From Verrucomicrobiales bacterium (GTDB taxonomy: Bacteria; Verrucomicrobiota; Verrucomicrobiia; Verrucomicrobiales; DEV007): a DNA stretch of 64,000 nt. The DNA lies in the NCBI GenBank assembly GCA_018058245.1, contig JAGPCC010000002.1:2643-66642 (forward strand), in the 5' to 3' direction. The position numbers and the translations under genes are program-made. Positions 28,692 through 39,283 of the stretch are shown here, piece after piece (within the stretch, counting starts at the first letter, position 1; each line of letters begins with the position of its first letter). The notes beneath the pieces were generated by a model. It had not been told where the DNA came from, did no database searches, and was given only the letters and a program-made list of their open reading frames with translations.

Positions 28692-30266
28692 TCAGGCGGT
28701 AGCGCCGTTCTCGCCTAACACTGACTTGAAGATTGATTCCAACTCCCGGATTTCCTCGTCAGTCAGTAGCTCAAATTCCGGAAGTTCTCGTTTTCGCTTG
28801 GAAAGTTCACCGCCATTCTGGTGGCAAAGTTTTATGAAAAGGTCAGCGATGCGGTCAGGAAGCTCGACGACCTCCCGCATCTCCCGGCGTATCTCATCAT
28901 AGGCTGTCAAGAAGCGCAGTTCGGTGGGCAGTTCGGTCTCAATCGTCTCTCGAATGAACTCGATTGTGATTCGCGTCGCCTCGGTCAGGTCAATATAGCG
29001 ATAGAAATCGGCAGTGTCATTGGTGACGGTCATCCTCATCCGTTCATCGAGGGTGTATTCGACCCGCTCCATAAGAGGTTTGGAAAAGCTCTCGAGGGCT
29101 TGGTCGTATTCGCGTGGACGGTTGAGAATCACTGCGGAAATGGGCAGGATGATGCCTTCGGGTCCGAAATGATTGTGAGCAAGGACATGATGGAGAAGGA
29201 AGCGGTGGATGCGACCGTTCCCGTCGCTGAAGGGGTGGAGAAAGTTGAAGGCGAAGGAGATGACTGCGGCGGAGACCAAAGTGGAGACACCAGTGGGAGT
29301 TCGGAAAGTGAGATTCTTTTCAAGCAGCTTCACCTTTAGTATCCGATCTACGAGCAGATTCGCCATCTTCAGGAATTCCTTCATCAATTGATCGAGATCC
29401 TCCGGTTTCGGTCCCGCAAAATGGACTCGTTCGACATCGGGCGCTAGTGTCTCACCAACATAGATTTGTTCCCCGATCTCACTTCTCCACCCATCGTTCG
29501 CGAACCGAGGATCTACGATGGCCTGCTGCAATTCCACGAGTGCTTCCTTGTTTAGAAATCTTCTGTGCCACGCCTGTTCCAGAAGCCCGATGAACACCTC
29601 GGCACGCTTCTGACTCGGGGTTTCTCGTTCGATTTCATAACTGCTCTTGCTCTCCTTCACGTAAAGGTATCGAACTGCGCGTTCGAAGACTTCTGGCGAG
29701 TATTCCCCAATGATCGAAGTGCAACGGTCTTTCATCTCAGACTCGTCCCATTTTGGCAGCCCATTCCACCGCACGACTGGAGAGAAGTGGCCAGTACCGA
29801 GTATATTGGCGTTAATCCTCTGACGTTTCTGTTTCCGGACCGGTCCTGTCACGTAAATTTTTGGATCAAGCAAATCTACGTAATTGCCCTGTTTCAAATC
29901 GGGGAGATCTAACCGCTCTCGAGTGAAGCCTTCATAAAGATTCCAGAGAATTCGCGCATACCGTCCAGTAGGTCTCGTGCGCACGTAGGCAGTCAGTTCT
30001 ACGGGATCGATTTCCCTTACCAAAAGCTTCCGAAGCAGTTCCAGATGAAGACCCTCGCGACGGAGAGCGAACTCCAGCTGCTCAAACACATCTGCGCCGG
30101 GTCCCTGAGCGGCGGGCAAATATTCGATGACCCGCCCATTCCGCTCGATAATGCGGCGCGCTCCTTTTGAAAGCGAATGACTCTCCTTCCAGTGAGGCAT
30201 CGTGACGAGCCCGAATTGCTCAGCGAGCCAAGCGTATCCGAGAGGTTTACTTTCGGGGATGTCCAT
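28692..30266 (-). CDS. Fic-family protein (probable AMP/NMP transferase)
   Basis: Canonical HPFSDGNGRIHR motif; SSYEIE resembles the class II autoinhibitory helix. Confidence 0.92.
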   Translation of the reverse strand: MDIPESKPLGYAWLAEQFGLVTMPHWKESHSLSKGARRIIERNGRVIEYLPAAQGPGADVFEQLEFALRREGLHLELLRKLLVREIDPVELTAYVRTRPTGRYARILWNLYEGFTRERLDLPDLKQGNYVDLLDPKIYVTGPVRKQKRQRINANILGTGHFSPVVRWNGLPKWDESEMKDRCTSIIGEYSPEVFERAVRYLYVKESKSSYEIERETPSQKRAEVFIGLLEQAWHRRFLNKEALVELQQAIVDPRFANDGWRSEIGEQIYVGETLAPDVERVHFAGPKPEDLDQLMKEFLKMANLLVDRILKVKLLEKNLTFRTPTGVSTLVSAAVISFAFNFLHPFSDGNGRIHRFLLHHVLAHNHFGPEGIILPISAVILNRPREYDQALESFSKPLMERVEYTLDERMRMTVTNDTADFYRYIDLTEATRITIEFIRETIETELPTELRFLTAYDEIRREMREVVELPDRIADLFIKLCHQNGGELSKRKRELPEFELLTDEEIRELESIFKSVLGENGATA

Positions 30267-30684: not shown

Positions 30685-30951
30685 ATGGATAAAATCCGCG
30701 GAACCAAAAGCAGGGGGATCGACGCGAATACGTTCGAAATGAGCGTATTATGGCAAGATCCCATCAATACCCACACCTACAACTCCACCGAGAAGATCCA
30801 ATTCTCGGGTGACACAAAACCCGATCCGAGTCCGGTGGGCGGCGTTTACATCACGAACGCACTCCTTCTTAGTGTCGGAGACCGTGTTCATTGCAACATT
30901 CAGGCCCGTGACGTTTACGGGCGTGTCGTCGCCGATGTTTGGAAGTACTGA
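30685..30951 (+). pseudogene. Thermonuclease (SNase)-like fragment
   Basis: C-terminal half LLLSVGDRVHC...ARDVYGRVVADVW resembles the SNase D-x-YGR motif; the N-terminal catalytic DGD region and the C-terminal helices are absent. Confidence 0.45.
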
Positions 30952-30957
30952 ACAACC

Positions 30958-32022
30958 ATGACTACTCCCCGCCGCCCGCTGCATCGCGTTGCCGAGGTTC
31001 ACTCCGGTCTTCCAGTGAGTGCCTCTGAACCGGAGACATCGGGCGGCGGGGCACTGGTCCTTGCCTTAATGCCGGCGTCGCTGAAATTCGATGCTGAGTT
31101 TTCGCCGGGGTCGGAAACTCTAGTCAAAGTCCTTGCCGCTTCGGCACCGGATTCCCGATTCCAGGTTCAGTCCGGGGATATCCTCGTTACCGCCAAGTCG
31201 ACGGAAGCGAGCCTTCGCTGCGGAATCATTGCAGCGGATTGGGACCAGCGTCCTTCCCCGGTCTTTGCGTCAAGCTTGATTCGGATTCGAGTGGCAACGC
31301 CCGAGACGATTCTTCCGCGCTTTCTCCACGCCTGGCTGAGCAGCTCGAGCGGGAAAATTTCATTAAAGGCCGTATCCCAATCCGCGACCTCGCAAATGAA
31401 CCTCACGACCGCCGCGATCTCCCAACTTCAAGTTCCAGTTCCACCGATGGAGGAGCAACGGAGGATTGTGGAGTTTCTCGACGCGGCAGTCACCGCACAT
31501 GATTCCGCGATTGCCGCTGCTGAGACCCGGCTTGCTCTCGCGCACGAAATTGCATTTAACCCAACGCTTCCGATGCCCTTTCACGATTCCAAATCTCGAT
31601 CACCACGCCTTCTCATACAGACGGCCCGCCCGGAAACCACAATCCTGACAACCGAACGTGGCGATGGCACGTCGATGCCGAACTCGTCACTTTGGCCGGA
31701 AGTCAGAGAACTGGTCGAGGCGCTTCCCGATCGCCCCTTGGCGAGGCTCTTTGATCCGTATGCCAGCGAAACCGCTTACTTGGATCGAACCGAACTCGCC
31801 CGACTTATCGCCAAAGAACTGCGAACGCTGCTTGCCATTTGCGCAGCCCACCCGCACGATCTGATTCGGACCTACGAGAAAGAGGCGATGATCGACGTCG
31901 ATTACACGCTGGCTTCCCGCCTCGGAATCTACATGGGCGAACGCTCCGTTGATTACTTTCTGATGGAACTCGAAACCCTTCCCCCTGAAACCCAGGAACA
32001 AGTCCACGTTCACCTTACCTGA
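30958..32022 (+). CDS. hsdS: Half-size HsdS-like specificity subunit (one TRD) with ~150-aa unknown C-terminal extension
   Basis: GDILV, LIRIR, FLHAWLSS, Q-x-NLT...ISQLQVPVPPMEEQRRIV conserved HsdS helix; only one TRD. Confidence 0.72.
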   Translation: MTTPRRPLHRVAEVHSGLPVSASEPETSGGGALVLALMPASLKFDAEFSPGSETLVKVLAASAPDSRFQVQSGDILVTAKSTEASLRCGIIAADWDQRPSPVFASSLIRIRVATPETILPRFLHAWLSSSSGKISLKAVSQSATSQMNLTTAAISQLQVPVPPMEEQRRIVEFLDAAVTAHDSAIAAAETRLALAHEIAFNPTLPMPFHDSKSRSPRLLIQTARPETTILTTERGDGTSMPNSSLWPEVRELVEALPDRPLARLFDPYASETAYLDRTELARLIAKELRTLLAICAAHPHDLIRTYEKEAMIDVDYTLASRLGIYMGERSVDYFLMELETLPPETQEQVHVHLT

Positions 32023-32039
32023 CCCCTGATCATTCCCCC

Positions 32040-33809
32040 ATGCTCACCCGCGAAGAACTCAACCGCCAGCTCTGGGGCGCCGCCGACATCCTGCGCGGTG
32101 CCGTCGATGCCGCCGATTTCAAGAATCACATCCTCTCCCTGCTTTTCCTGAAGCGGCTTTCCGACGTCTTCTTCGAACGGCGCGAGGAAATCCTGCGGGA
32201 ATGGCGGGAGGCGGGAAAGTCGCCCGCCGAAGCTGAAGCCATTGCCGATGATCCCGACGAATACGACGACGGGGCCTACTTCCTGCCGGTCGAATCGCGC
32301 TGGCCCTCGCTGATGAAGGTCGCCGAAAACCGCGCCGAGGCGATCGACAAGGCCCTCGTCGCCATCGAAGACACGAACTCGGCCTACCTCAGCGGCGTCC
32401 TGGCCGGAGTCCGCTTCAACGACGAGCGCCGCTTCGGCGACGCGGCGACGATGGACGGTCTGATGCAGCGTCTCCTCGCGCACTTCGCGAGGATTCCGCT
32501 CGGGAACCGCGATCTCCTCGAGCCCGACGTGCTCGGGAATGCCTACGAGTTTCTCATCGAGCGATTTGCGGAGACGGCAGGGAAAAAGGGCGGCGAGTTT
32601 TACACCCCGCGCGGAGTTGTACGCCTCCTCGTGGAGCTGCTTGATCCCCGCGAAGGCATGCGGATCAACGATCCCACGAGCGGATCCGGCGGTATGTTGA
32701 TCGAGTGCGGGCATCACATCGAGGAGCGCGGGGGGAATCCGCGCAATCTCACCCTGACCGGTCAGGAAAAAAACATCGGCACCTGGGCGATCTGCCGTCT
32801 GAACATGCTCCTCCACGGCTTCCCCGACGCCGACATCCGCGCCGGCGATACGATCCGATCACCGAAGTTCACCACTCACGGGTCACTCGATGCCTTCGAC
32901 CGCGTCATCGCCAATCCGCCCTTTTCCTTGAAGGACTGGGGTGCCGATTCAGCAAGCTCCGATCCTTACCATCGTTTCGAGCGTGGCATCCCACCGAAGA
33001 CGAAGGGCGACATGGCCTTCCTGCTCCACATGATCGAGTCCGTCCGCGAGCGTCGCGGCATGGCCGGCGTGGTTCTACCCCATGGAGTCCTCTTCCGCGG
33101 TGGGTCGGAGGCGAAGATACGCGAATCATTGCTGAAGGACGACCTGATCGAGGCCATCATCGGTCTCCCCGCCTCCCTCTTCTTCGGCACCGGGATTCCC
33201 GCCGCCCTTGTCATCTGCAATTGGAACAAAGCCCCTGAGCGGAAGGGGCGCGTCCTCATCGTTGATGCCTCGACCGATGGCCTTTACCGCGAGGGAAAAT
33301 CCCGCAACTTCCTCGATCCCGTCGATGTCCTGAGGATCGCCGCGATCTTTCACGGATGGGCCGACCCCGGTCGCACCGTGGAAGCGGTCGAGTCCATCGC
33401 CACGACGTGGAAGGCGGCACTCGCGCGACACCGCGACCGCCAGATCGAGCGCGCAGGTGGACCGGCGTCGGAACTTGCCCCTCGAATTCACGAGGACTTT
33501 GACACGCGCCTCGCCGAAATCGAACGGGGCTCCGCGTCGCTCCGCGACTGGTTCGGCGCGACACACCCCGCTCCGGGGGGAGGCACGCGATCCAGTCTTG
33601 AAAAACACGCCGCCGTTGTCGCGGTGAAGGAGGTGCTCAAGGAACACAAGGGCAACCTTAACATCACCCGCCATGTTGATGCGATGGATCCACCGCCGAG
33701 GTTGGATGTGGTGGCGGAGCTGGCGAAACTGCGGGAGTTGGAGCTGAAGCGCGATGAGGCGGAGAAGAAGATGAATGAATTGTTGAAGGAGTTTGGGTAT
33801 GAAAACTAA
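32040..33809 (+). CDS. hsdM: Type I R-M methyltransferase subunit (m6A)
   Basis: LWGAADILRG, GEFYTPRGV, DPTSGSGGML, ANPPFS, VLPHGVLFRGG, NLNITRHVD. Confidence 0.96.
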   Translation: MLTREELNRQLWGAADILRGAVDAADFKNHILSLLFLKRLSDVFFERREEILREWREAGKSPAEAEAIADDPDEYDDGAYFLPVESRWPSLMKVAENRAEAIDKALVAIEDTNSAYLSGVLAGVRFNDERRFGDAATMDGLMQRLLAHFARIPLGNRDLLEPDVLGNAYEFLIERFAETAGKKGGEFYTPRGVVRLLVELLDPREGMRINDPTSGSGGMLIECGHHIEERGGNPRNLTLTGQEKNIGTWAICRLNMLLHGFPDADIRAGDTIRSPKFTTHGSLDAFDRVIANPPFSLKDWGADSASSDPYHRFERGIPPKTKGDMAFLLHMIESVRERRGMAGVVLPHGVLFRGGSEAKIRESLLKDDLIEAIIGLPASLFFGTGIPAALVICNWNKAPERKGRVLIVDASTDGLYREGKSRNFLDPVDVLRIAAIFHGWADPGRTVEAVESIATTWKAALARHRDRQIERAGGPASELAPRIHEDFDTRLAEIERGSASLRDWFGATHPAPGGGTRSSLEKHAAVVAVKEVLKEHKGNLNITRHVDAMDPPPRLDVVAELAKLRELELKRDEAEKKMNELLKEFGYEN

Positions 33810-34380
33810 AGAAAACCAAGTCCAACGCGTTGGCTGGTCCGAGCACTATCTTGGCGAACTTTTCTCCGAGAGAAGGGAACCCGGTATCTCGGGACTGCCA
33901 ATTCTCTCGGTCACAATGAACTCCGGGGTGGTCGCACGCTCCGACTTGGGTAGACGCATCGAATCCGAATTGGCAGATGAATCGCACGCCTTAGTCCGGA
34001 AAAATGACATCGCGTATAATATGATGCGGATGTGGCAGGGCGTCTCCGGCTTAGCGCCATGCGATGGACTCGTTAGCCCAGCCTACGTCGTTCTCAACCC
34101 GAGTGATAGAATAGACCCACTATTTGCGAGCTATCTCTTCAAGATGCCTGAAACGATTCGTCTCTTTCATCGATTTTCGCAGGGTCTGACAGACGACCGG
34201 CTTCGTCTATATTTCGATCAATTCTCTGCAATACGCGTCAATATTCCGGACTCGGTTGAAACTCAGCGGAACATCGCTTCACTCATTTCGACGTTCGACG
34301 AGCGAATTTCACAATCTGAAGCAACTACAGATTTTCTGCGATTCGCGAAGCATGCGCTTTGCCAAGATCTCCTCTCATGA
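33799..34380 (+). CDS. hsdS: Second half-size HsdS specificity subunit (one TRD)
   Basis: W-x4-LGEL start, NDIAYN, VSPAYVVL, QRNIAS...KHALCQDLL end; overlaps the hsdM stop; 193 aa. Confidence 0.85.
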   Translation: MKTKENQVQRVGWSEHYLGELFSERREPGISGLPILSVTMNSGVVARSDLGRRIESELADESHALVRKNDIAYNMMRMWQGVSGLAPCDGLVSPAYVVLNPSDRIDPLFASYLFKMPETIRLFHRFSQGLTDDRLRLYFDQFSAIRVNIPDSVETQRNIASLISTFDERISQSEATTDFLRFAKHALCQDLLS

Positions 34381-35591
34381 GCGAACCCTCCGGAAACGTT
34401 ATCATCCTTGGTGCGGGCGCAAGCTTCAACGCCGGGATTCCGTTAATGTCGAACTTCATTGACACGATGTGGAATCTCGCACGGACAGGGCGCGGTCCGG
34501 AGGGAGCAATCACGCCCGCCGACCGAAAAATTCTAGAGAATGCCCTTGGCGTTCGTGAGGATTTGGATGGCTATCATGGCCGAGCCTCGTTCGACATGTG
34601 GAACATCGAGGATCTCCTCTCGATTCTATCGTTCAACGCCATGGCGGGTGGAAAGAAGGAAAAGAACCGCCTCGAAGCGATCACTAAGGGAATTGCGAAG
34701 ACGATTGAAATCACATGCAACGTCAAGCACGACGGAAACATTGAAACCGATCCAGAGAAGGGCAGGAACTATCTCTATGAGGAGTTTTGGAATTCGCTTC
34801 TTAAATGGTCCCGGGATACAAAGCTTCCAGTCCCACCTATTGTCACGTTCAATTACGACCTTGTTTTGGAACGCTCTTTGATGCGCGTACTCACGGGGTT
34901 TCGTTACTTCGACGAGCGGAATAAAGGATTTCCATGGAGATCGGTTCTGATCCGGTACGGGGCGTCTGCATTTGATGAGGTCGTATTTGACGCAAAATTC
35001 GTTCGGTGGGAGACAAGGGGCGAGCGATACGAATCAAACTGGGGGCTAAAGCTCAGTGAGTCCACTACGTCACCCGTTGATGATGACGATTACGTGCTTC
35101 GAATCAACCTCTGCAAACTCCATGGCTCTCTAAATTTTCCTCGTTCGGAGAAGGACAAAACTGATAAACCAGCCGGACATCGCCTTGTGACGGCCCTTGA
35201 AGATCCTTTGATTCTTCCTCCGGTCTTCAACAAAGCGACAAATAGTCTCGGGGGATCAACTTGGGCCGAAGCATTGCGCTGCATCCGCGCCTGTAAGAAT
35301 CTGATCATCTGCGGATACAGTCTGCCCGCGACAGACATCTACATGCAGTATTTCCTAAAGTCGGCGCTCGGTCCGAATCAAGATTTGAATCGGATGTTTA
35401 TTTACGACCGCTCGCTCTTCATCCCCGAAGAGTCAGCAGCCGCCGAATCACTTAAGAACCGATATTCCGCAATTTTCTCTCCGGGTATTCAACATCGAAT
35501 CCATTTCGATCCGCCACGACACAACGGAGGAACCTTCGAAGACCTGGTATACATCCTTCAAAAATACCCAGATCAAATTCTCTTCGGCTGA
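34377..35591 (+). CDS. SIR2-like domain protein (putative NADase effector)
   Basis: ILGAGAS, TFNYD, KLHGS, ILPP-x-x-NK and CGYS motifs; ATGA overlap with the hsdS stop. Confidence 0.85.
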   Translation: MSEPSGNVIILGAGASFNAGIPLMSNFIDTMWNLARTGRGPEGAITPADRKILENALGVREDLDGYHGRASFDMWNIEDLLSILSFNAMAGGKKEKNRLEAITKGIAKTIEITCNVKHDGNIETDPEKGRNYLYEEFWNSLLKWSRDTKLPVPPIVTFNYDLVLERSLMRVLTGFRYFDERNKGFPWRSVLIRYGASAFDEVVFDAKFVRWETRGERYESNWGLKLSESTTSPVDDDDYVLRINLCKLHGSLNFPRSEKDKTDKPAGHRLVTALEDPLILPPVFNKATNSLGGSTWAEALRCIRACKNLIICGYSLPATDIYMQYFLKSALGPNQDLNRMFIYDRSLFIPEESAAAESLKNRYSAIFSPGIQHRIHFDPPRHNGGTFEDLVYILQKYPDQILFG

Positions 35592-35608
35592 AATTCAGAA
35601 ATTTCATC

Positions 35609-38599
35609 ATGCCCGAACGCCCCGACAGCCAGACCCCCGCCCTCGCCCTTCTCCGCGACGTGCTGGGCTATTCGGCGACGACGGGCGCGGAACTCACCAA
35701 GGAACGCGGCACCCTTTCCGACCCGTGGCTGGAGTCGCGCCTTCTCGCTGCCGTGAAACGCGTCAATCCGGGTCTCGGGGAAGGCGCGGCGCGCCAGGCG
35801 ATCCTCACCTTGCGCCAAACCGCCGGTCCGGATCTCCTCGAGGCGAACGAACGGCTCCACGTGCTCCTCTCGCGCTGGGTCAGCGTCGAGGAACCCGCCT
35901 CAGTCCCCGGGCAACCGCCGATGCGACGCAGCGTGCGTTTCTTCGATTTCGAGACGGTGTCGAACAACGAGTTCCTCGTCACCGAAGAATTCGTGGTGAA
36001 AGGACCGCAGCGCGAACGGCGCTTCGATCTTGTCATTCACGTCAACGGTCTGCCTCTCGTTGTAATCGAGTGCAAGGATCCCGCCGATCCCCACGCGATC
36101 GAGAAGGGCGTCGGGGATCTACTCGCCTATCAACGCGCCGAAACTGGAGCTCCGCGCCTCTTCGAGACCATCCATTTCTGCCTCGCCCTCAACCGGCACG
36201 ACGCGCGCTACGGCACGGTCGCGACTGAACTACGCCATTACGCCCGCTGGAAGAGCCTGCGCCCCTTCACCGAGGAGAGTCTCACCTCGGCGCTGGGCCG
36301 CACCCCGACACCGCAGGATGAAACCCTCGCCTCGCTCTGCGAACCAGCGCAACTGCTCGACTTTCTCCGGGGATTTGTCGCCTACGAGCGGCGCGGCGGT
36401 CGGCTCGTGAAAAAGCTGGCCCGCTATCAACAATGGGAGGCCGTCATCGATGCCGACGATCGCGTCTCCGACCGCGGACGCGGACCACTGAAACAACGCG
36501 GCGGCGTGATCTGGCACACCCAGGGCAGCGGAAAGAGCCTGACGATGCTGTGGCTGGCCCTACGCCTGCGACGCTCACCTGAACTGGAGAATCCGGGTCT
36601 CGTCATCGTAACGGACCGGAGCGACCTCGACCGCCAGATCGCGACCACCTTCCGGAACTGCGGCTTCGAAAATCCCGTGACCGCCGCGAGCGTGCGCCAT
36701 CTCGGACAGTTGCTCGACAATGCCGAGGGCCAGACCCTGTTGACGACGATCCAGAAATTCGAAGAAGACCTCACGCGCAAGGGCCTGCACCGGATCAAGG
36801 TGCCGATGCACCGTGGCGGCAAGATCATCGTACTGATTGACGAGGCCCACCGCACCGAATACGGGGTCTTCAACGCGCGGCTCCGCGAGGCCATGCCCGA
36901 CGCCTGCTTCATCGCCTTCACCGGTACGCCGATCGCAAAAACCCTCGCAAAGTTCGGCAGCTATATCCACCGCTACACCATGCCCGTCTCGGTGCAGGAC
37001 GGAGCCACCGTCCCGATCCTTTATGAAAATCGCCTTCCCGACCTCGCCGTGTGGGGCAAGCGGCTCGACCCGATCTTCGACGCGGAGCTGGTCCATCTCA
37101 CCGAGGAACAGCGCGAACTGGTGAAGAAGAAGGAAGCGACGATGCGCCGCATCGCCGAGGCCGAGGACCGCATCGAGATGATCGCCCACGACATCGCGAA
37201 ACATTACCGCGAGAACTTTATGGCCGATGGCTTCAAGGGACAGGTCGCGGCCTGCTCGCAAAAGGCGGCGGCCCGCTACTACGAGGCGCTCGACCGGCTC
37301 CTGCCGGGTAAAGTTGCCCTCCTCATCTCCGATCCGCCGAAAGGCGACGACGCGCTCTGGGAGCTGAAACGGAAATTCGCCAACGAATCGGCAATCATCG
37401 AGCAGTTTCTCAACGATCCGCCGGACCGTCTTGCCCTAATCGTCGTCGCCGAAAAATACCTGACAGGGTTCGATGCTCCAGTCGAGAGGGTCCTTTACCT
37501 CGACAAACCCTTGCGGGAACACAATCTGCTCCAGGCGATCGCCCGGGTGAACCGCCCCCTGCCCGAACTCGGCAAAGAGTGGGGGCTGGTGGTGGATTAT
37601 TGGGGTGTCTCCGGCTTTCTGGATCAGGCCCTCGAAGGTCTGCACGAGGATGTCGATCCCGGTGAGATCCTTGTGGAGCGCCTCGGAGAAGAGGCCTACG
37701 CCCGCCTGCGGGCCTGCCATAACGATCTCGCCGACTGTTTCCCGAAAGGCCTTTCGCGGAAGGTGATCGAACCGTGGCTGGAGGCAATCGAAGCCGACGA
37801 TAGACGCGCCATCTTCCTCGCCCGATACCGGGACTTCTACCACTCGATCGAGCAACTGCTCCCCGATCCGCGGGCGCTCGACTTTCTCCCCGACCTCGCC
37901 TGGTACCGGCGGGTGCGGAAAGAGGCCGAAAGCGCCTTTCAGGAACGCGATCTGTCCATCCCCGACTGCTCGGCCCGGATCCGGCAACTGATCGACCGTC
38001 ACGTCCGCGGCGAAGAGATCATCCCACTGCTCAAACCGATCGATATTCTCGGTGAAGACTTTTCGGTGGAGATTGAAAAACTGCGCAGCCCGCGTGCGAA
38101 GGCGATGCGTATGGAGCACGCAATCCGGCATACGATCAGCGTGAAGCTGCATGAAGATCCCGTCTTCTTCGAAAGTCTCTGCGAACGCCTCGCCCGCATC
38201 ATCGGCGAACGGAAGGCCAGCCGTCTTGATGACATCGCCGAATTCCGCCTCCTCGGCGAACTCGCCCGTGAGATGCGGCAACGCGATCAGGAGGCCGGCC
38301 GTCAGGGTGTGAAGACAGAGGAACTTCCCTTCTTCCACGCCATTCAAAAGGCCCTCGAAAAACCGAAGGAGGGTGTCGCCGAAGACACGGAGCCTGACCT
38401 GCCAAAACTGACGCGAGAGATCCTCGCCGATCTCCAGGAAATCGCCGTGATCGACTGGGAGACCAAGGAAGAGGTGATGCGCGACATGCGCCGGGCGATC
38501 AAGCGGCGGCTACGCCTTGATTACACGATTCCCGCCGATGCGATCGAACCACTCGTGGGCTCATTGATGGAGCTCGCCAAGGTACACCTCCGTCGCTGA
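35609..38599 (+). CDS. hsdR: Type I restriction endonuclease subunit R
   Basis: FDLVIHVNGLPLVVIECK nuclease, HTQGSGKS Walker A, DEAHR, FTGTP, LTGFD, LLQAIARVNR. Confidence 0.97.
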   Translation: MPERPDSQTPALALLRDVLGYSATTGAELTKERGTLSDPWLESRLLAAVKRVNPGLGEGAARQAILTLRQTAGPDLLEANERLHVLLSRWVSVEEPASVPGQPPMRRSVRFFDFETVSNNEFLVTEEFVVKGPQRERRFDLVIHVNGLPLVVIECKDPADPHAIEKGVGDLLAYQRAETGAPRLFETIHFCLALNRHDARYGTVATELRHYARWKSLRPFTEESLTSALGRTPTPQDETLASLCEPAQLLDFLRGFVAYERRGGRLVKKLARYQQWEAVIDADDRVSDRGRGPLKQRGGVIWHTQGSGKSLTMLWLALRLRRSPELENPGLVIVTDRSDLDRQIATTFRNCGFENPVTAASVRHLGQLLDNAEGQTLLTTIQKFEEDLTRKGLHRIKVPMHRGGKIIVLIDEAHRTEYGVFNARLREAMPDACFIAFTGTPIAKTLAKFGSYIHRYTMPVSVQDGATVPILYENRLPDLAVWGKRLDPIFDAELVHLTEEQRELVKKKEATMRRIAEAEDRIEMIAHDIAKHYRENFMADGFKGQVAACSQKAAARYYEALDRLLPGKVALLISDPPKGDDALWELKRKFANESAIIEQFLNDPPDRLALIVVAEKYLTGFDAPVERVLYLDKPLREHNLLQAIARVNRPLPELGKEWGLVVDYWGVSGFLDQALEGLHEDVDPGEILVERLGEEAYARLRACHNDLADCFPKGLSRKVIEPWLEAIEADDRRAIFLARYRDFYHSIEQLLPDPRALDFLPDLAWYRRVRKEAESAFQERDLSIPDCSARIRQLIDRHVRGEEIIPLLKPIDILGEDFSVEIEKLRSPRAKAMRMEHAIRHTISVKLHEDPVFFESLCERLARIIGERKASRLDDIAEFRLLGELAREMRQRDQEAGRQGVKTEELPFFHAIQKALEKPKEGVAEDTEPDLPKLTREILADLQEIAVIDWETKEEVMRDMRRAIKRRLRLDYTIPADAIEPLVGSLMELAKVHLRR

Positions 38600-38602
38600 C
38601 TT

Positions 38603-39283
38603 ATGGCAGGAACATTCCATCGGGACGCCGTCCGATTCGGCAACACGGAGATCGCGTATAAGATCCGCCGGTCACGCGAGCGAAAAACACTCGGGATCAC
38701 GGTTTGTGGTCCATGGGTCGAGGTAGCCGCGCCGGCAGGGATGCGTGCTTCGGCGATACGCCCATTGGTCTTGAAAAAGGGTGCCTGGATTCTCCAGAAG
38801 CTCGATCTTGCGAGACGTCACGCTCCGATTTATCCACAGGTGCTCAAGGCAGGTGACAGCATCCGTTTCTTTGGGAGACAGTATTTGCTGAGGATACACA
38901 AGGTGGAGGGAAAACGCTCGTGGCTTGAACAAGCGGGAGGCAGGTTCCATTTATATCTTGCCGAGCCTTCGAACCCTGATGTCGGGCATCAGCTATTTAA
39001 GCGATGGTTCCGCGAGCAGCTTCAACTTGCGCTGCCTCAATGGATCGAAGAGTTCTCGAAGAAGTTGGGTATAGAGCCTCCGCCGTTTGATGTGAGAGAG
39101 CTGGGTAGCCGGTGGGGGAGTTGCAGTGCGTCGCGTAAAATTCGTTTCCACTGGCTTCTCACCACCCAAACACCTGAGTTCGCTCGCCACGTCGTCGCTC
39201 ACGAGCTATGTCACCTTATCGACCCAACACACTCGGCGGCTTTCTTACAGCTGTTGAAGCGAATTAACCCCAGCGGATTTTAG
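38603..39283 (+). CDS. YgjP/SprT-like M48 zinc metallopeptidase domain protein
   Basis: RKTLGI, RWGSCS, HELCH...HSAAF; a common companion of hsdR. Confidence 0.88.
   Translation: MAGTFHRDAVRFGNTEIAYKIRRSRERKTLGITVCGPWVEVAAPAGMRASAIRPLVLKKGAWILQKLDLARRHAPIYPQVLKAGDSIRFFGRQYLLRIHKVEGKRSWLEQAGGRFHLYLAEPSNPDVGHQLFKRWFREQLQLALPQWIEEFSKKLGIEPPPFDVRELGSRWGSCSASRKIRFHWLLTTQTPEFARHVVAHELCHLIDPTHSAAFLQLLKRINPSGF

What the first reader, a model, noticed from the sequence alone, without database searches (positions are those of the whole stretch)
30958..39283. Type I R-M operon with an embedded, translationally coupled SIR2-like effector: candidate undescribed defence system
Seen: the order is half-hsdS, hsdM, half-hsdS, SIR2-like, hsdR, M48. 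The SIR2 ATG (34377) overlaps the hsdS stop (ATGA) and hsdR begins 17 bp after it, so SIR2 sits inside the operon. It keeps the GAGAS, TFNYD, KLHGS and GYS motifs. By eye it is more AT-rich than hsdM/hsdR, like a swapped-in cassette. Established: SIR2 domains are NAD+-depleting effectors in Thoeris ThsA, DSR, Sir2-HerA and SPARSA, and the hsdS-hsdR slot hosts the backup toxin PrrC in EcoprrI. Inference: this SIR2 is an abortive-infection NADase held inactive by the R-M complex and triggered when a phage anti-restriction protein disturbs it.
Basis: partly seen in the sequence, partly recalled or inferred. Interest (0 to 1): 0.88.

Follow-up and report, generated by a model that had tools for sequence, protein, structure and literature searches.

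The report
SIR2-like gene inside Type I restriction operon
A small SIR2-type (probably NAD+-destroying) gene really does sit inside a Type I restriction-modification operon of a wastewater Verrucomicrobiales bacterium, but comparison with about 130 related loci suggests a self-contained defence gene riding in a known cargo slot rather than a toxin controlled by the restriction enzyme.

Summary
The gene order is half-hsdS, hsdM, half-hsdS, SIR2-like, hsdR, YgjP-like peptidase. The ATGA overlap, the 17-nt gap, the four motifs and the lower GC (0.50 vs 0.63) are all present.

The SIR2-like protein (404 aa) belongs to an uncharacterised single-domain family of about 300 clusters at 50% identity. 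The Asn/His dyad is invariant in 30 aligned members. Its fold is closest to the SIR2 of SIR2-HerA (15-17% identity), but no HerA or any other conserved partner is present.

Embedding in an hsd operon is confined to one clade (at least 47% identity), with seven distinct operons. There SIR2 and HsdR identities co-vary (r=0.94). The hsdS-hsdR slot also carries changing candidate defence genes (PDC-M04, PDC-S29).

Six clade members lie outside any hsd operon, including the 77% relative beside PD-Lambda-1 and a Type IV enzyme. So do about 75 more distant homologues, with one exception.

Best reading: an autonomous SIR2 abortive-infection effector co-transcribed with Type I R-M in a known cargo hotspot (PrrC, DarTG2, TgvAB). 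A PrrC-like guard of the restriction enzyme is possible for this clade but has no support. It is a new variant of a known kind, of moderate interest.

The parts
28692..30266 (-). Fic-domain protein (524 aa), divergently oriented, at the left edge of the island. It matches the PADLOC candidate defence family PDC-S24.
   Evidence: Pfam Fic E 8e-11. PADLOC PDC-S24 E 1e-158 over the full length. A syntenic copy with 68% identity lies in L039.
30685..30951 (+). Small ORF (88 aa) just upstream of the operon. Its function is unknown.
   Evidence: No family match. Conserved at 69% identity in the same position in L039.
30958..32022 (+). ORF of 354 aa. The N-terminal ~200 aa form a half HsdS (one target-recognition domain plus the conserved helix). 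The C-terminal ~154 aa are unassigned.
   Evidence: PADLOC Specificity_I E 8e-18 and Pfam Methylase_S 34.5 bits. The N-half is conserved upstream of hsdM in L039 (60%), L001 (43%) and L128 (41%). The C-part has no match anywhere.
32040..33809 (+). HsdM, the Type I methyltransferase subunit (589 aa).
   Evidence: HsdM_N + N6_Mtase E 5e-83. PADLOC MTase_I E 1e-135.
33793..34380 (+). Half-size HsdS (195 aa). It corresponds to the C-terminal half of the 391-402 aa HsdS of related operons.
   Evidence: PADLOC Specificity_I E 8e-27. It aligns to the 3' half of hsdS in L001, L039 and L128 at 64-68% identity. An independent metagenome contig, L044, is identical.
34377..35591 (+). SIR2-like protein (404 aa, single domain), a putative NAD+ hydrolase effector. 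Its start overlaps the hsdS stop (ATGA).
   Evidence: The catalytic dyad candidates N159 and H249 are invariant. There is no CxxC zinc-ribbon motif.
35609..38599 (+). HsdR, the Type I restriction/translocase subunit (996 aa), 17 nt after SIR2.
   Evidence: HSDR_N, SWI2_SNF2, T1R_D3-like and T1RH-like_C. TIGR00348 462 bits. Junction read.
38603..39283 (+). YgjP-like zinc metallopeptidase (226 aa; HELCH motif), 3 nt after hsdR.
   Evidence: PF01863 E 3e-42. Conserved after hsdR in L001, L003, L039 and L130.

Best explanation
The locus is a defence island of about 10.6 kb. It contains a Fic/PDC-S24 gene and a Type I R-M operon whose hsdS-hsdR interval serves as a cargo slot.

The cargo here is one gene. 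It belongs to an uncharacterised family of ~400-aa, single-domain SIR2 proteins that act on their own. I infer that the protein is an autoinhibited NAD+ hydrolase that a phage cue switches on, depleting NAD+ and aborting the infection. That is how the other defence SIR2s work (ThsA, DSR2, SIR2-HerA, SPARSA).

Being embedded gives it co-transcription, translational coupling and co-transfer with the restriction system, so the two act as layered defences. It does not need the R-M complex for control.

Shown:
- gene content and junctions;
- fold and conserved dyad;
- absence of a conserved partner;
- variable cargo in the slot;
- co-inheritance with the operon in one clade;
- intact, full-length close relatives encoded outside hsd operons.

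Inferred: NADase activity, a defence role, abortive infection, and autonomy from R-M.
For: SIR2 identity:
- Invariant GAGxS, FNYD, KLHGS and GYS motifs.
- HMM alignment of FNYDL and KLHGS to the same motifs of the SIR2 of SIR2-HerA.
- AlphaFold model with pLDDT 86.7. The top 21 Foldseek PDB hits are SIR2 of SIR2-HerA (E 4e-9 to 4.5e-6, TM ~0.5), followed by SPARSA, ThsA, KomC and DSR2.
- In SaSir2 the Asn/His dyad is catalytic (PMC11514289).

Autonomy:
- Nearly all family members are 380-420 aa with no fusions; 304 clusters reach E<=1e-30.
- No recurrent neighbour in 29 genome loci and 80 metagenome loci.
- In the 20 loci outside the embedded clade that have at least 4 kb on both sides, no R-M family recurs. 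Neighbours are mostly housekeeping genes, integrases or prophage genes.
- Other contexts: behind an IS91 transposase, in a prophage-like region, and beside HipA.
- The 77% relative L038 sits after a Type IV enzyme and PD-Lambda-1, next to isocitrate dehydrogenase, with no hsd genes.

Cargo slot:
- L001: SIR2 + 350 aa + 157 aa + PDC-M04A/B.
- L039: SIR2 + PDC-S29 + 163 aa.
- L128: 349 + 175 + 75 aa, then SIR2.
- L130: SIR2 + 103 aa + DUF3800 + 144 aa.
- L003: SIR2 + 294 aa.

Published precedent for independent systems in the same slot: TgvAB (PMC11411939), DarTG2 (PMC12255303), and 3,231 embedded families (Payne 2024).
Against: - No member of this family has been tested. NADase activity and defence are inferred from homology at 15-17% identity.
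- Known defence SIR2s need an activating partner or a sensor domain, and Sir2 alone is inactive in SIR2-HerA. This family has no evident sensor domain, so what switches it on is unexplained.
- Within its clade, SIR2 has stayed in this operon lineage while HsdR diverged to 58% identity (r=0.94 between SIR2 and HsdR identities). That retention could reflect functional coupling rather than mere linkage.
- Other relatives sit directly after an unrelated hsdS (L052), a Type ISP enzyme (L004, 11-nt gap), GmrSD (L008) and Mrr (L067). This hints at a preference for restriction enzymes.
- Many lone copies lie among housekeeping genes, so a non-defence role is not excluded.
Confidence: 0.55

Rival explanations
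1. PrrC-like guard. In this Verrucomicrobial clade the SIR2 binds the HsdM/S/R complex, which keeps it inactive. It is released as an NADase when a phage anti-restriction protein disables the enzyme.
For: - Same slot as PrrC, between hsdS and hsdR.
- ATGA translational coupling to hsdS. In L001, L039 and L130 it also directly follows hsdS, at an 8-9 nt gap or overlapping.
- Long co-inheritance with HsdR (r=0.94) across seven operons.
- Independent juxtaposition with another hsdS (L052) and a Type ISP enzyme (L004).
- Defence SIR2s generally need a partner to be regulated, and no other partner is visible.
Against: - The family is not restricted to R-M. About 8 of roughly 100 loci are embedded, and these stem from at most two or three events. 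PrrC is almost exclusively embedded.
- The nearest non-identical full-length relative outside the operon (77%) has the same length and motifs.
- In L128 three other genes separate hsdS from SIR2.
- No docking domain is present.
- Nothing here tests binding.
Confidence: 0.17
2. The SIR2-like protein is not an NAD+-depleting effector. It uses NAD+ for something else (ADP-ribosylation or deacylation of a protein or nucleic acid), for example tuning restriction or modification, or a housekeeping role.
For: - Many homologues are single genes among housekeeping genes: upstream of uvrB in L015 and L127, and beside ribonucleotide reductase in L124.
- Identity to any proven NADase is only 15-17%.
Against: - It lacks the CxxC zinc-ribbon motifs I recall from canonical sirtuin deacylases (five Cys, no CxxC).
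- Canonical sirtuins are far weaker structural matches (E > 1e-2) than the defence NADases.
- Patchy, mobile distribution: IS91, a prophage-like region, and defence genes such as PD-Lambda-1, Type IV, Type ISP and GmrSD enzymes.
Confidence: 0.15
3. A decaying or silent passenger: the gene is carried along with the operon without a current function.
For: - Its GC content differs from hsdM/hsdR.
- One relative (L026) is frameshifted.
- Metatranscriptome contigs cover hsdS and hsdR fragments but not the SIR2 body (very sparse data).
Against: - Intact ORF with all invariant residues.
- Identical in an independent contig (L044), and the stretch is held near-identically in about 20 metagenome runs from several studies.
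- Retained across seven diverged operons.
Confidence: 0.05

Closest known systems
SIR2 subunit of SIR2-HerA (Nezha / Gao19), e.g. PDB 8SUB, 8J4U, 8YHX
   Same: - It is the best sequence-profile and fold match.
- Similar size (~390-425 aa).
- The FNYDL and KLHGS motifs align, giving the same Asn/His dyad.
- The closest PADLOC HMMs are named SIR2.
   Different: - Only 15-17% identity and TM ~0.5.
- No HerA or other ATPase is encoded next to it here or recurrently in the family.
- In SIR2-HerA the Sir2 is inactive without HerA.
PrrC anticodon nuclease embedded in EcoprrI (hsdM-hsdS-prrC-hsdR)
   Same: - Same position between hsdS and hsdR in a Type I operon.
- Plausible role as a second-line, abortive effector.
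   Different: - Unrelated protein: PrrC is an ABC ATPase plus HEPN RNase, whereas this is a SIR2 Rossmann fold.
- PrrC is almost exclusively embedded in Type I R-M. This family is mostly outside R-M.
- Masking by the R-M complex is demonstrated for PrrC and untested here.
Independent systems embedded in Type I R-M: DarTG2 in the EPEC RRDM island; TgvAB in V. cholerae VPI-2; 'guilt-by-embedding' cargo (Payne et al. 2024)
   Same: - Defence genes sit between hsdS and hsdR and are co-transcribed.
- The slot is described as a recombination hotspot.
- In related loci here the slot also holds PADLOC candidates PDC-M04A/B and PDC-S29.
   Different: - The cargo is a SIR2. SIR2 or sirtuin is not mentioned for Type I R-M in that preprint's SIR2 search of text or supplements, nor in the other papers found.
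DSR2 / DSR1 (single-gene defence-associated sirtuins)
   Same: Single-gene SIR2 NADase logic. For DSR2, a phage protein activates it directly (abstract of PMC11263360, listed). That is the kind of trigger a partner-less SIR2 would need.
   Different: - DSR proteins are much larger: the solved DSR2 chains are 930-970 residues, and from my own knowledge they carry a large C-terminal sensor region.
- This protein is 404 aa with no extra domain.
- The fold match to DSR2 is weak (E ~6e-3).

Membership tests
Type I restriction-modification system | HsdM with N6-adenine methyltransferase domain | tested here: met
   HsdM_N + N6_Mtase E 5e-83; PADLOC MTase_I E 1e-135. TIGR00497 scores 190 bits, below its equivalog cut-off of 243.
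Type I restriction-modification system | HsdR with N-terminal nuclease, SF2 motor and C-terminal domains | tested here: met
   HSDR_N, SWI2_SNF2, T1R_D3-like and T1RH-like_C; TIGR00348 462 bits, above its cut-off of 285.
Type I restriction-modification system | HsdS with two target-recognition domains | tested here: not met
   Both S-like ORFs carry one TRD each (195 aa; and ~200 aa of the 354-aa ORF). Related operons have a 391-402 aa HsdS. Half-S subunits can work as dimers (my own knowledge); whether they do here is untested.
SIR2 superfamily, defence (SIR2_2-like) clade | Rossmann GxGxS NAD-binding loop plus catalytic Asn and His | tested here: met
   G12-A-G-A-S16, N159 (FNYD) and H249 (KLHGS) are invariant in 30 homologues. 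They align to the same motifs in solved SIR2-HerA Sir2 chains.
SIR2 superfamily, defence (SIR2_2-like) clade | Pfam SIR2_2 (PF13289) above gathering score | tested here: not met
   17.6 bits against a cut-off of 24.5 for the window protein. Many homologues carry a precomputed PF13289 hit.
SIR2 superfamily, defence (SIR2_2-like) clade | SIR2 fold | tested here: met
   Model pLDDT 86.7, pTM 0.89. Foldseek probability is 1.00 to SIR2-HerA, SPARSA and ThsA structures.
SIR2 superfamily, defence (SIR2_2-like) clade | NAD+ hydrolase activity | not testable with these tools
   Needs a biochemical assay.
SIR2-HerA (Nezha) | Adjacent HerA ATPase partner | tested here: not met
   All operon genes are accounted for. 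No recurrent ATPase appears among 141 immediate neighbours.
Thoeris ThsA | C-terminal SLOG domain and a TIR (ThsB) neighbour | tested here: not met
   Single-domain protein of 404 aa. No SLOG or TIR hit in the protein or its neighbours. The match to ThsA is weak (E 7e-4).
SPARSA | SIR2-APAZ fusion with a short pAgo partner | tested here: not met
   No Argonaute or APAZ in the operon. PADLOC Aga_SIR2 matches only residues 8-38.
DSR1/DSR2 | Large single protein with a C-terminal sensor region | tested here: not met
   404 aa. Family members are 380-420 aa. The solved DSR2 chains are 930-970 aa.
PrrC-type guard of Type I R-M | Located between hsdS and hsdR | tested here: met
PrrC-type guard of Type I R-M | Family found (almost) only inside Type I R-M operons | tested here: not met
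   Seven operons of one clade plus L052 are embedded. Six clade members and about 75 other loci are not.
PrrC-type guard of Type I R-M | Held inactive by the R-M complex and activated by anti-restriction proteins | not testable with these tools
   Needs genetics and biochemistry.
Embedded defence cargo ('guilt-by-embedding') | The slot carries different, unrelated genes in related host operons | tested here: met
   Cargo differs among L001, L039, L128, L130, L003 and the window. PDC-M04A/B and PDC-S29 are present.

The most novel reading that the evidence does not exclude
In this Verrucomicrobiota/Kiritimatiellia operon lineage, the SIR2 has become a guard of the Type I enzyme. It would be an NADase kept silent by HsdM/S/R and released when a phage anti-restriction protein (a DNA mimic or Stp-like peptide) hits the complex. 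That would be the first SIR2 analogue of PrrC, and it would explain how a sensor-less SIR2 is triggered.
Probability: 0.15. Interest if true: 0.8.

Novelty: new variant of a known kind. Interest (0 to 1): 0.45.

Why it matters
Defence SIR2 NADases studied so far rely on a partner or a fused sensor: HerA, pAgo, a SLOG domain binding a cyclic nucleotide, KomB, or the DSR2 C-terminal region. This family of about 300 clusters has neither, so how it is switched on is an open and testable question.

The locus provides a natural pair for that test. Close relatives exist both inside a Type I R-M operon and outside one. This allows a clean comparison between 'independent layered defence' and 'effector guarding the restriction enzyme'.

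If only the ordinary reading holds, the result adds one more candidate single-gene defence family and one more documented cargo type for the hsdS-hsdR hotspot.

Tried and rejected
1. Conserved partner gene. All-against-all BLAST of neighbours in 29 and then about 85 loci found none. Same-strand downstream genes of 290-380 aa looked recurrent by size but are unrelated to each other.
2. tblastn and iterated HMMs built from the window's HsdM/S/R, used to find R-M neighbours. They missed a Type ISP enzyme and nearly missed a foreign hsdS, so I used Pfam and PADLOC scans of the neighbours instead.
3. Pfam reported Type_ISP_C in 4 of 141 immediate neighbours. I could locate only one (L004). Two further scans and pairwise searches did not find the other three, so this remains unresolved.
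4. Co-transcription from public metatranscriptomes. Only seven short contigs (151-304 nt) fall on the operon and none spans a SIR2 junction, so this is not informative.
5. Flanking repeats or mobile-element scars around SIR2: none beyond chance. Promoter-like sites are no more frequent than in shuffled sequence.
6. Phage-encoded homologues: none. On plasmids there are only two distant hits at 23-24% identity.
7. 'Recent cassette swap' as the explanation of the low GC: rejected. The GC offset is present in all embedded loci measured, and SIR2 co-diverges with HsdR.
8. Literature search for a described SIR2 inside Type I R-M: nothing found.


Full report
**1. What is in the sequence**

The stretch 30958-39283 holds six co-directional ORFs with tight junctions.
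- A 354-aa ORF whose first ~200 residues are a half HsdS.
- HsdM.
- A 195-aa half HsdS.
- A 404-aa SIR2-like protein.
- HsdR.
- A YgjP-like zinc metallopeptidase.

The SIR2 ATG overlaps the hsdS stop as ATGA at 34377-34380. hsdR starts 17 nt after the SIR2 stop, and the peptidase starts 3 nt after hsdR.

They are invariant or nearly so in 30 homologues.

GC is 0.504 for SIR2 and 0.502 for the half hsdS. It is 0.627 for both hsdM and hsdR, and the window mean is 0.551.

A divergent Fic gene upstream (28692-30266) matches the PADLOC candidate PDC-S24 at E 1e-158. The defence island thus runs from about 28.7 to 39.3 kb, between a DnaJ-like gene and ordinary membrane and lipid genes.

The organism is a Verrucomicrobiales MAG. 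Near-identical sequence occurs in about 20 wastewater, sludge and freshwater metagenome runs.

**2. What the SIR2-like protein is**

Pfam SIR2_2 scores below its cut-off (17.6 against 24.5 bits) and NCBIfam has nothing. PADLOC SIR2 models match at E 5e-13.

A profile of 30 homologues finds the Sir2 subunits of SIR2-HerA among PDB sequences. The FNYDL and KLHGS motifs align to TNYDL and KLHGS.

An AlphaFold model (pLDDT 86.7, pTM 0.89) has SIR2 of SIR2-HerA as its top 21 Foldseek hits (E 4e-9 to 4.5e-6, TM ~0.5, 15-17% identity). SPARSA, ThsA, KomC and DSR2 follow. Canonical sirtuin deacylases come only at E > 1e-2.

The protein has no CxxC motif, so it lacks the zinc ribbon I recall from canonical sirtuin deacylases. 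In S. aureus Sir2-HerA the corresponding Asn/His pair is the catalytic dyad. Sir2 alone is autoinhibited there (PMC11514289).

The family is real and compact. It has 304 clusters at 50% identity with E <= 1e-30, almost all 380-420 aa, with no domain fusions. No homologue is found in phage genomes.

**3. Where its relatives live**

I collected 37 loci from species-representative genomes, 80 from metagenomes and 14 by exact look-ups.

No neighbouring gene recurs across the family.

Embedding in an hsd operon is confined to one clade, with at least 47% identity to the window protein (NJ tree). It comprises seven distinct operons from Verrucomicrobiota and Kiritimatiellia:
- the window (with the identical contig L044);
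- L043;
- L001;
- L039 (with L040 and L041);
- L128;
- L130;
- L003.

HsdR in these operons is 58-81% identical to the window's.

In the loci sampled from that clade, SIR2 and HsdR pairwise identities correlate at r = 0.94 over 15 pairs. SIR2 is 6-14 GC points below hsdM/hsdR in every locus measured. So SIR2 is an old resident of this operon lineage, not a recent swap.

The slot itself is fluid:
- L001 has four more genes after SIR2, including the two-gene PADLOC candidate PDC-M04A/B.
- L039 has PDC-S29 plus one more gene.
- L130 has three more genes.
- L003 has one more gene.
- L128 has three genes between hsdS and SIR2, so that SIR2 abuts hsdR.

Six members of the same clade are not in an hsd operon.
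- L038 is 77% identical and nested among the embedded ones in the tree. It follows a Type IV restriction enzyme and PD-Lambda-1, beside isocitrate dehydrogenase.
- L042 follows a NYN nuclease and RtcB.
- L129 lies beside a HipA toxin-antitoxin pair.
- L131 and L002 lie among ordinary genes.
- L026 is frameshifted.

Outside the clade there are about 75 loci at 34-46% identity. Only L052 follows an hsdS, an unrelated one, and is itself followed by RhuM and Fic genes. Other single cases are:
- directly after a Type ISP enzyme (L004, 11-nt gap), GmrSD (L008) and Mrr (L067);
- after DinG-like and UvrD-like helicases and a KaiC-like ATPase;
- directly upstream of uvrB, twice;
- 7 nt behind an IS91 transposase;
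- in a prophage-like region.

In the 20 loci outside the clade with at least 4 kb on both sides, no R-M family recurs. Most neighbours are housekeeping genes.

**4. Interpretation**

The hsdS-hsdR interval is a documented hotspot for other defence genes.
- PrrC in EcoprrI.
- DarTG2 in the EPEC RRDM island (PMC12255303).
- TgvAB in V. cholerae VPI-2, where the embedded system works without HsdR (PMC11411939).
- A systematic 'guilt-by-embedding' survey that found 3,231 embedded protein families (Payne et al. 2024).

Against that background, the best-supported reading is this. The SIR2 is an autonomous single-gene effector, most likely an autoinhibited NADase acting by abortive infection. It is carried as cargo and co-expressed with the Type I system (confidence 0.55).

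The comparative data argue against an obligate link, however:
- the family is mostly outside R-M, unlike PrrC;
- embedded and free members have the same architecture;
- SIR2's position within the slot varies.

I give the guard model 0.17. I give 0.15 to a different NAD+-dependent chemistry or role, and 0.05 to a silent passenger.

**5. Known or new**

I found no paper that describes a SIR2 inside a Type I R-M operon or that characterises this family. The PADLOC copy available dates from 2023, so the family may since have been given a candidate name.

The concept of embedding is established, and SIR2 NADase effectors are a well-known kind. What is new is a partner-less, sensor-less ~400-aa SIR2 family and its stable residence in one Type I operon lineage. 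I rate it a new variant of a known kind, with interest 0.45.

**6. Limits**

- Activity, defence and regulation are all inferred.
- Many metagenome contigs are short.
- The tree is a simple neighbour-joining tree.
- Embedding events were not counted on a robust phylogeny.
- Protein-protein contacts could not be modelled.
- Metatranscriptome coverage was too thin to show co-transcription.

Noticed in passing
window 33793-34380 (compare L001 8813-9988, L039 8748-9953, L128 3042-4250): The hsdS between hsdM and SIR2 is only 195 aa. It equals the C-terminal half of the 391-402 aa HsdS of sister operons, so the N-terminal target-recognition domain has been lost. An independent metagenome contig (L044) has the identical arrangement. 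Whether the enzyme works with a half-S dimer is unknown.
   Followed up: partly
window 30958-32022; L039 5632-6273; L001 6411-7031; L128 ~661-1263: A second, half-size HsdS-like ORF is conserved upstream of hsdM in this operon lineage (41-60% identity). In the window it is fused to a 154-aa C-terminal part that has no homologue or family match anywhere.
   Followed up: partly
window 28692-30266 (- strand); L039 3374-4966: A 524-aa Fic-domain protein matches the PADLOC candidate PDC-S24 at E 1e-158. It is syntenic (68% identity) with the Fic next to the sister operon in L039. Another relative's locus (L052) also has a Fic (SoFic-like) and a RhuM gene right after hsdS-SIR2.
   Followed up: partly
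window 30685-30951; L039 5382-5648: An 88-aa ORF immediately upstream of the operon is conserved (69% identity) in L039 and has no family match. By position it could be a small regulator, like RptR of the E. coli RRDM island, but no HTH was detected.
   Followed up: no
L015 5633-8931; L127 7001-10319: In two unrelated genomes the SIR2 homologue sits 18-38 nt upstream of, and co-directional with, a full-length uvrB. The two SIR2s are sister sequences in the tree, so this may be one event. The meaning is unknown.
   Followed up: no
L125 5746-8194; L126 233-2681: In Candidatus Sedimenticola MAGs a SIR2 homologue starts 7 nt after an IS91-family (Y2) transposase gene. The same protein is on 8 contigs, which suggests it travels as a passenger of the element.
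   Followed up: no
L004 1567-7768: A 1,663-aa Type ISP restriction-modification enzyme (Mrr nuclease, helicase, coupler, methyltransferase, Type_ISP_C) is followed after 11 nt by a SIR2 homologue. Pfam also reported Type_ISP_C in three other immediate neighbours that I could not locate.
   Followed up: partly
L001 12837-13978; L130 1946-3087: The two-gene PADLOC candidate PDC-M04A/B (a DUF3800 protein plus a ~145-aa protein) occupies the same hsdS-hsdR slot next to SIR2 in L001, where both genes match. L130 has the same-looking pair, but only its DUF3800 protein was identified.
   Followed up: partly
L026 9962-11205: A SIR2 homologue (47% identity) is split by a frameshift into two ORFs and is probably a pseudogene.
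   Followed up: no
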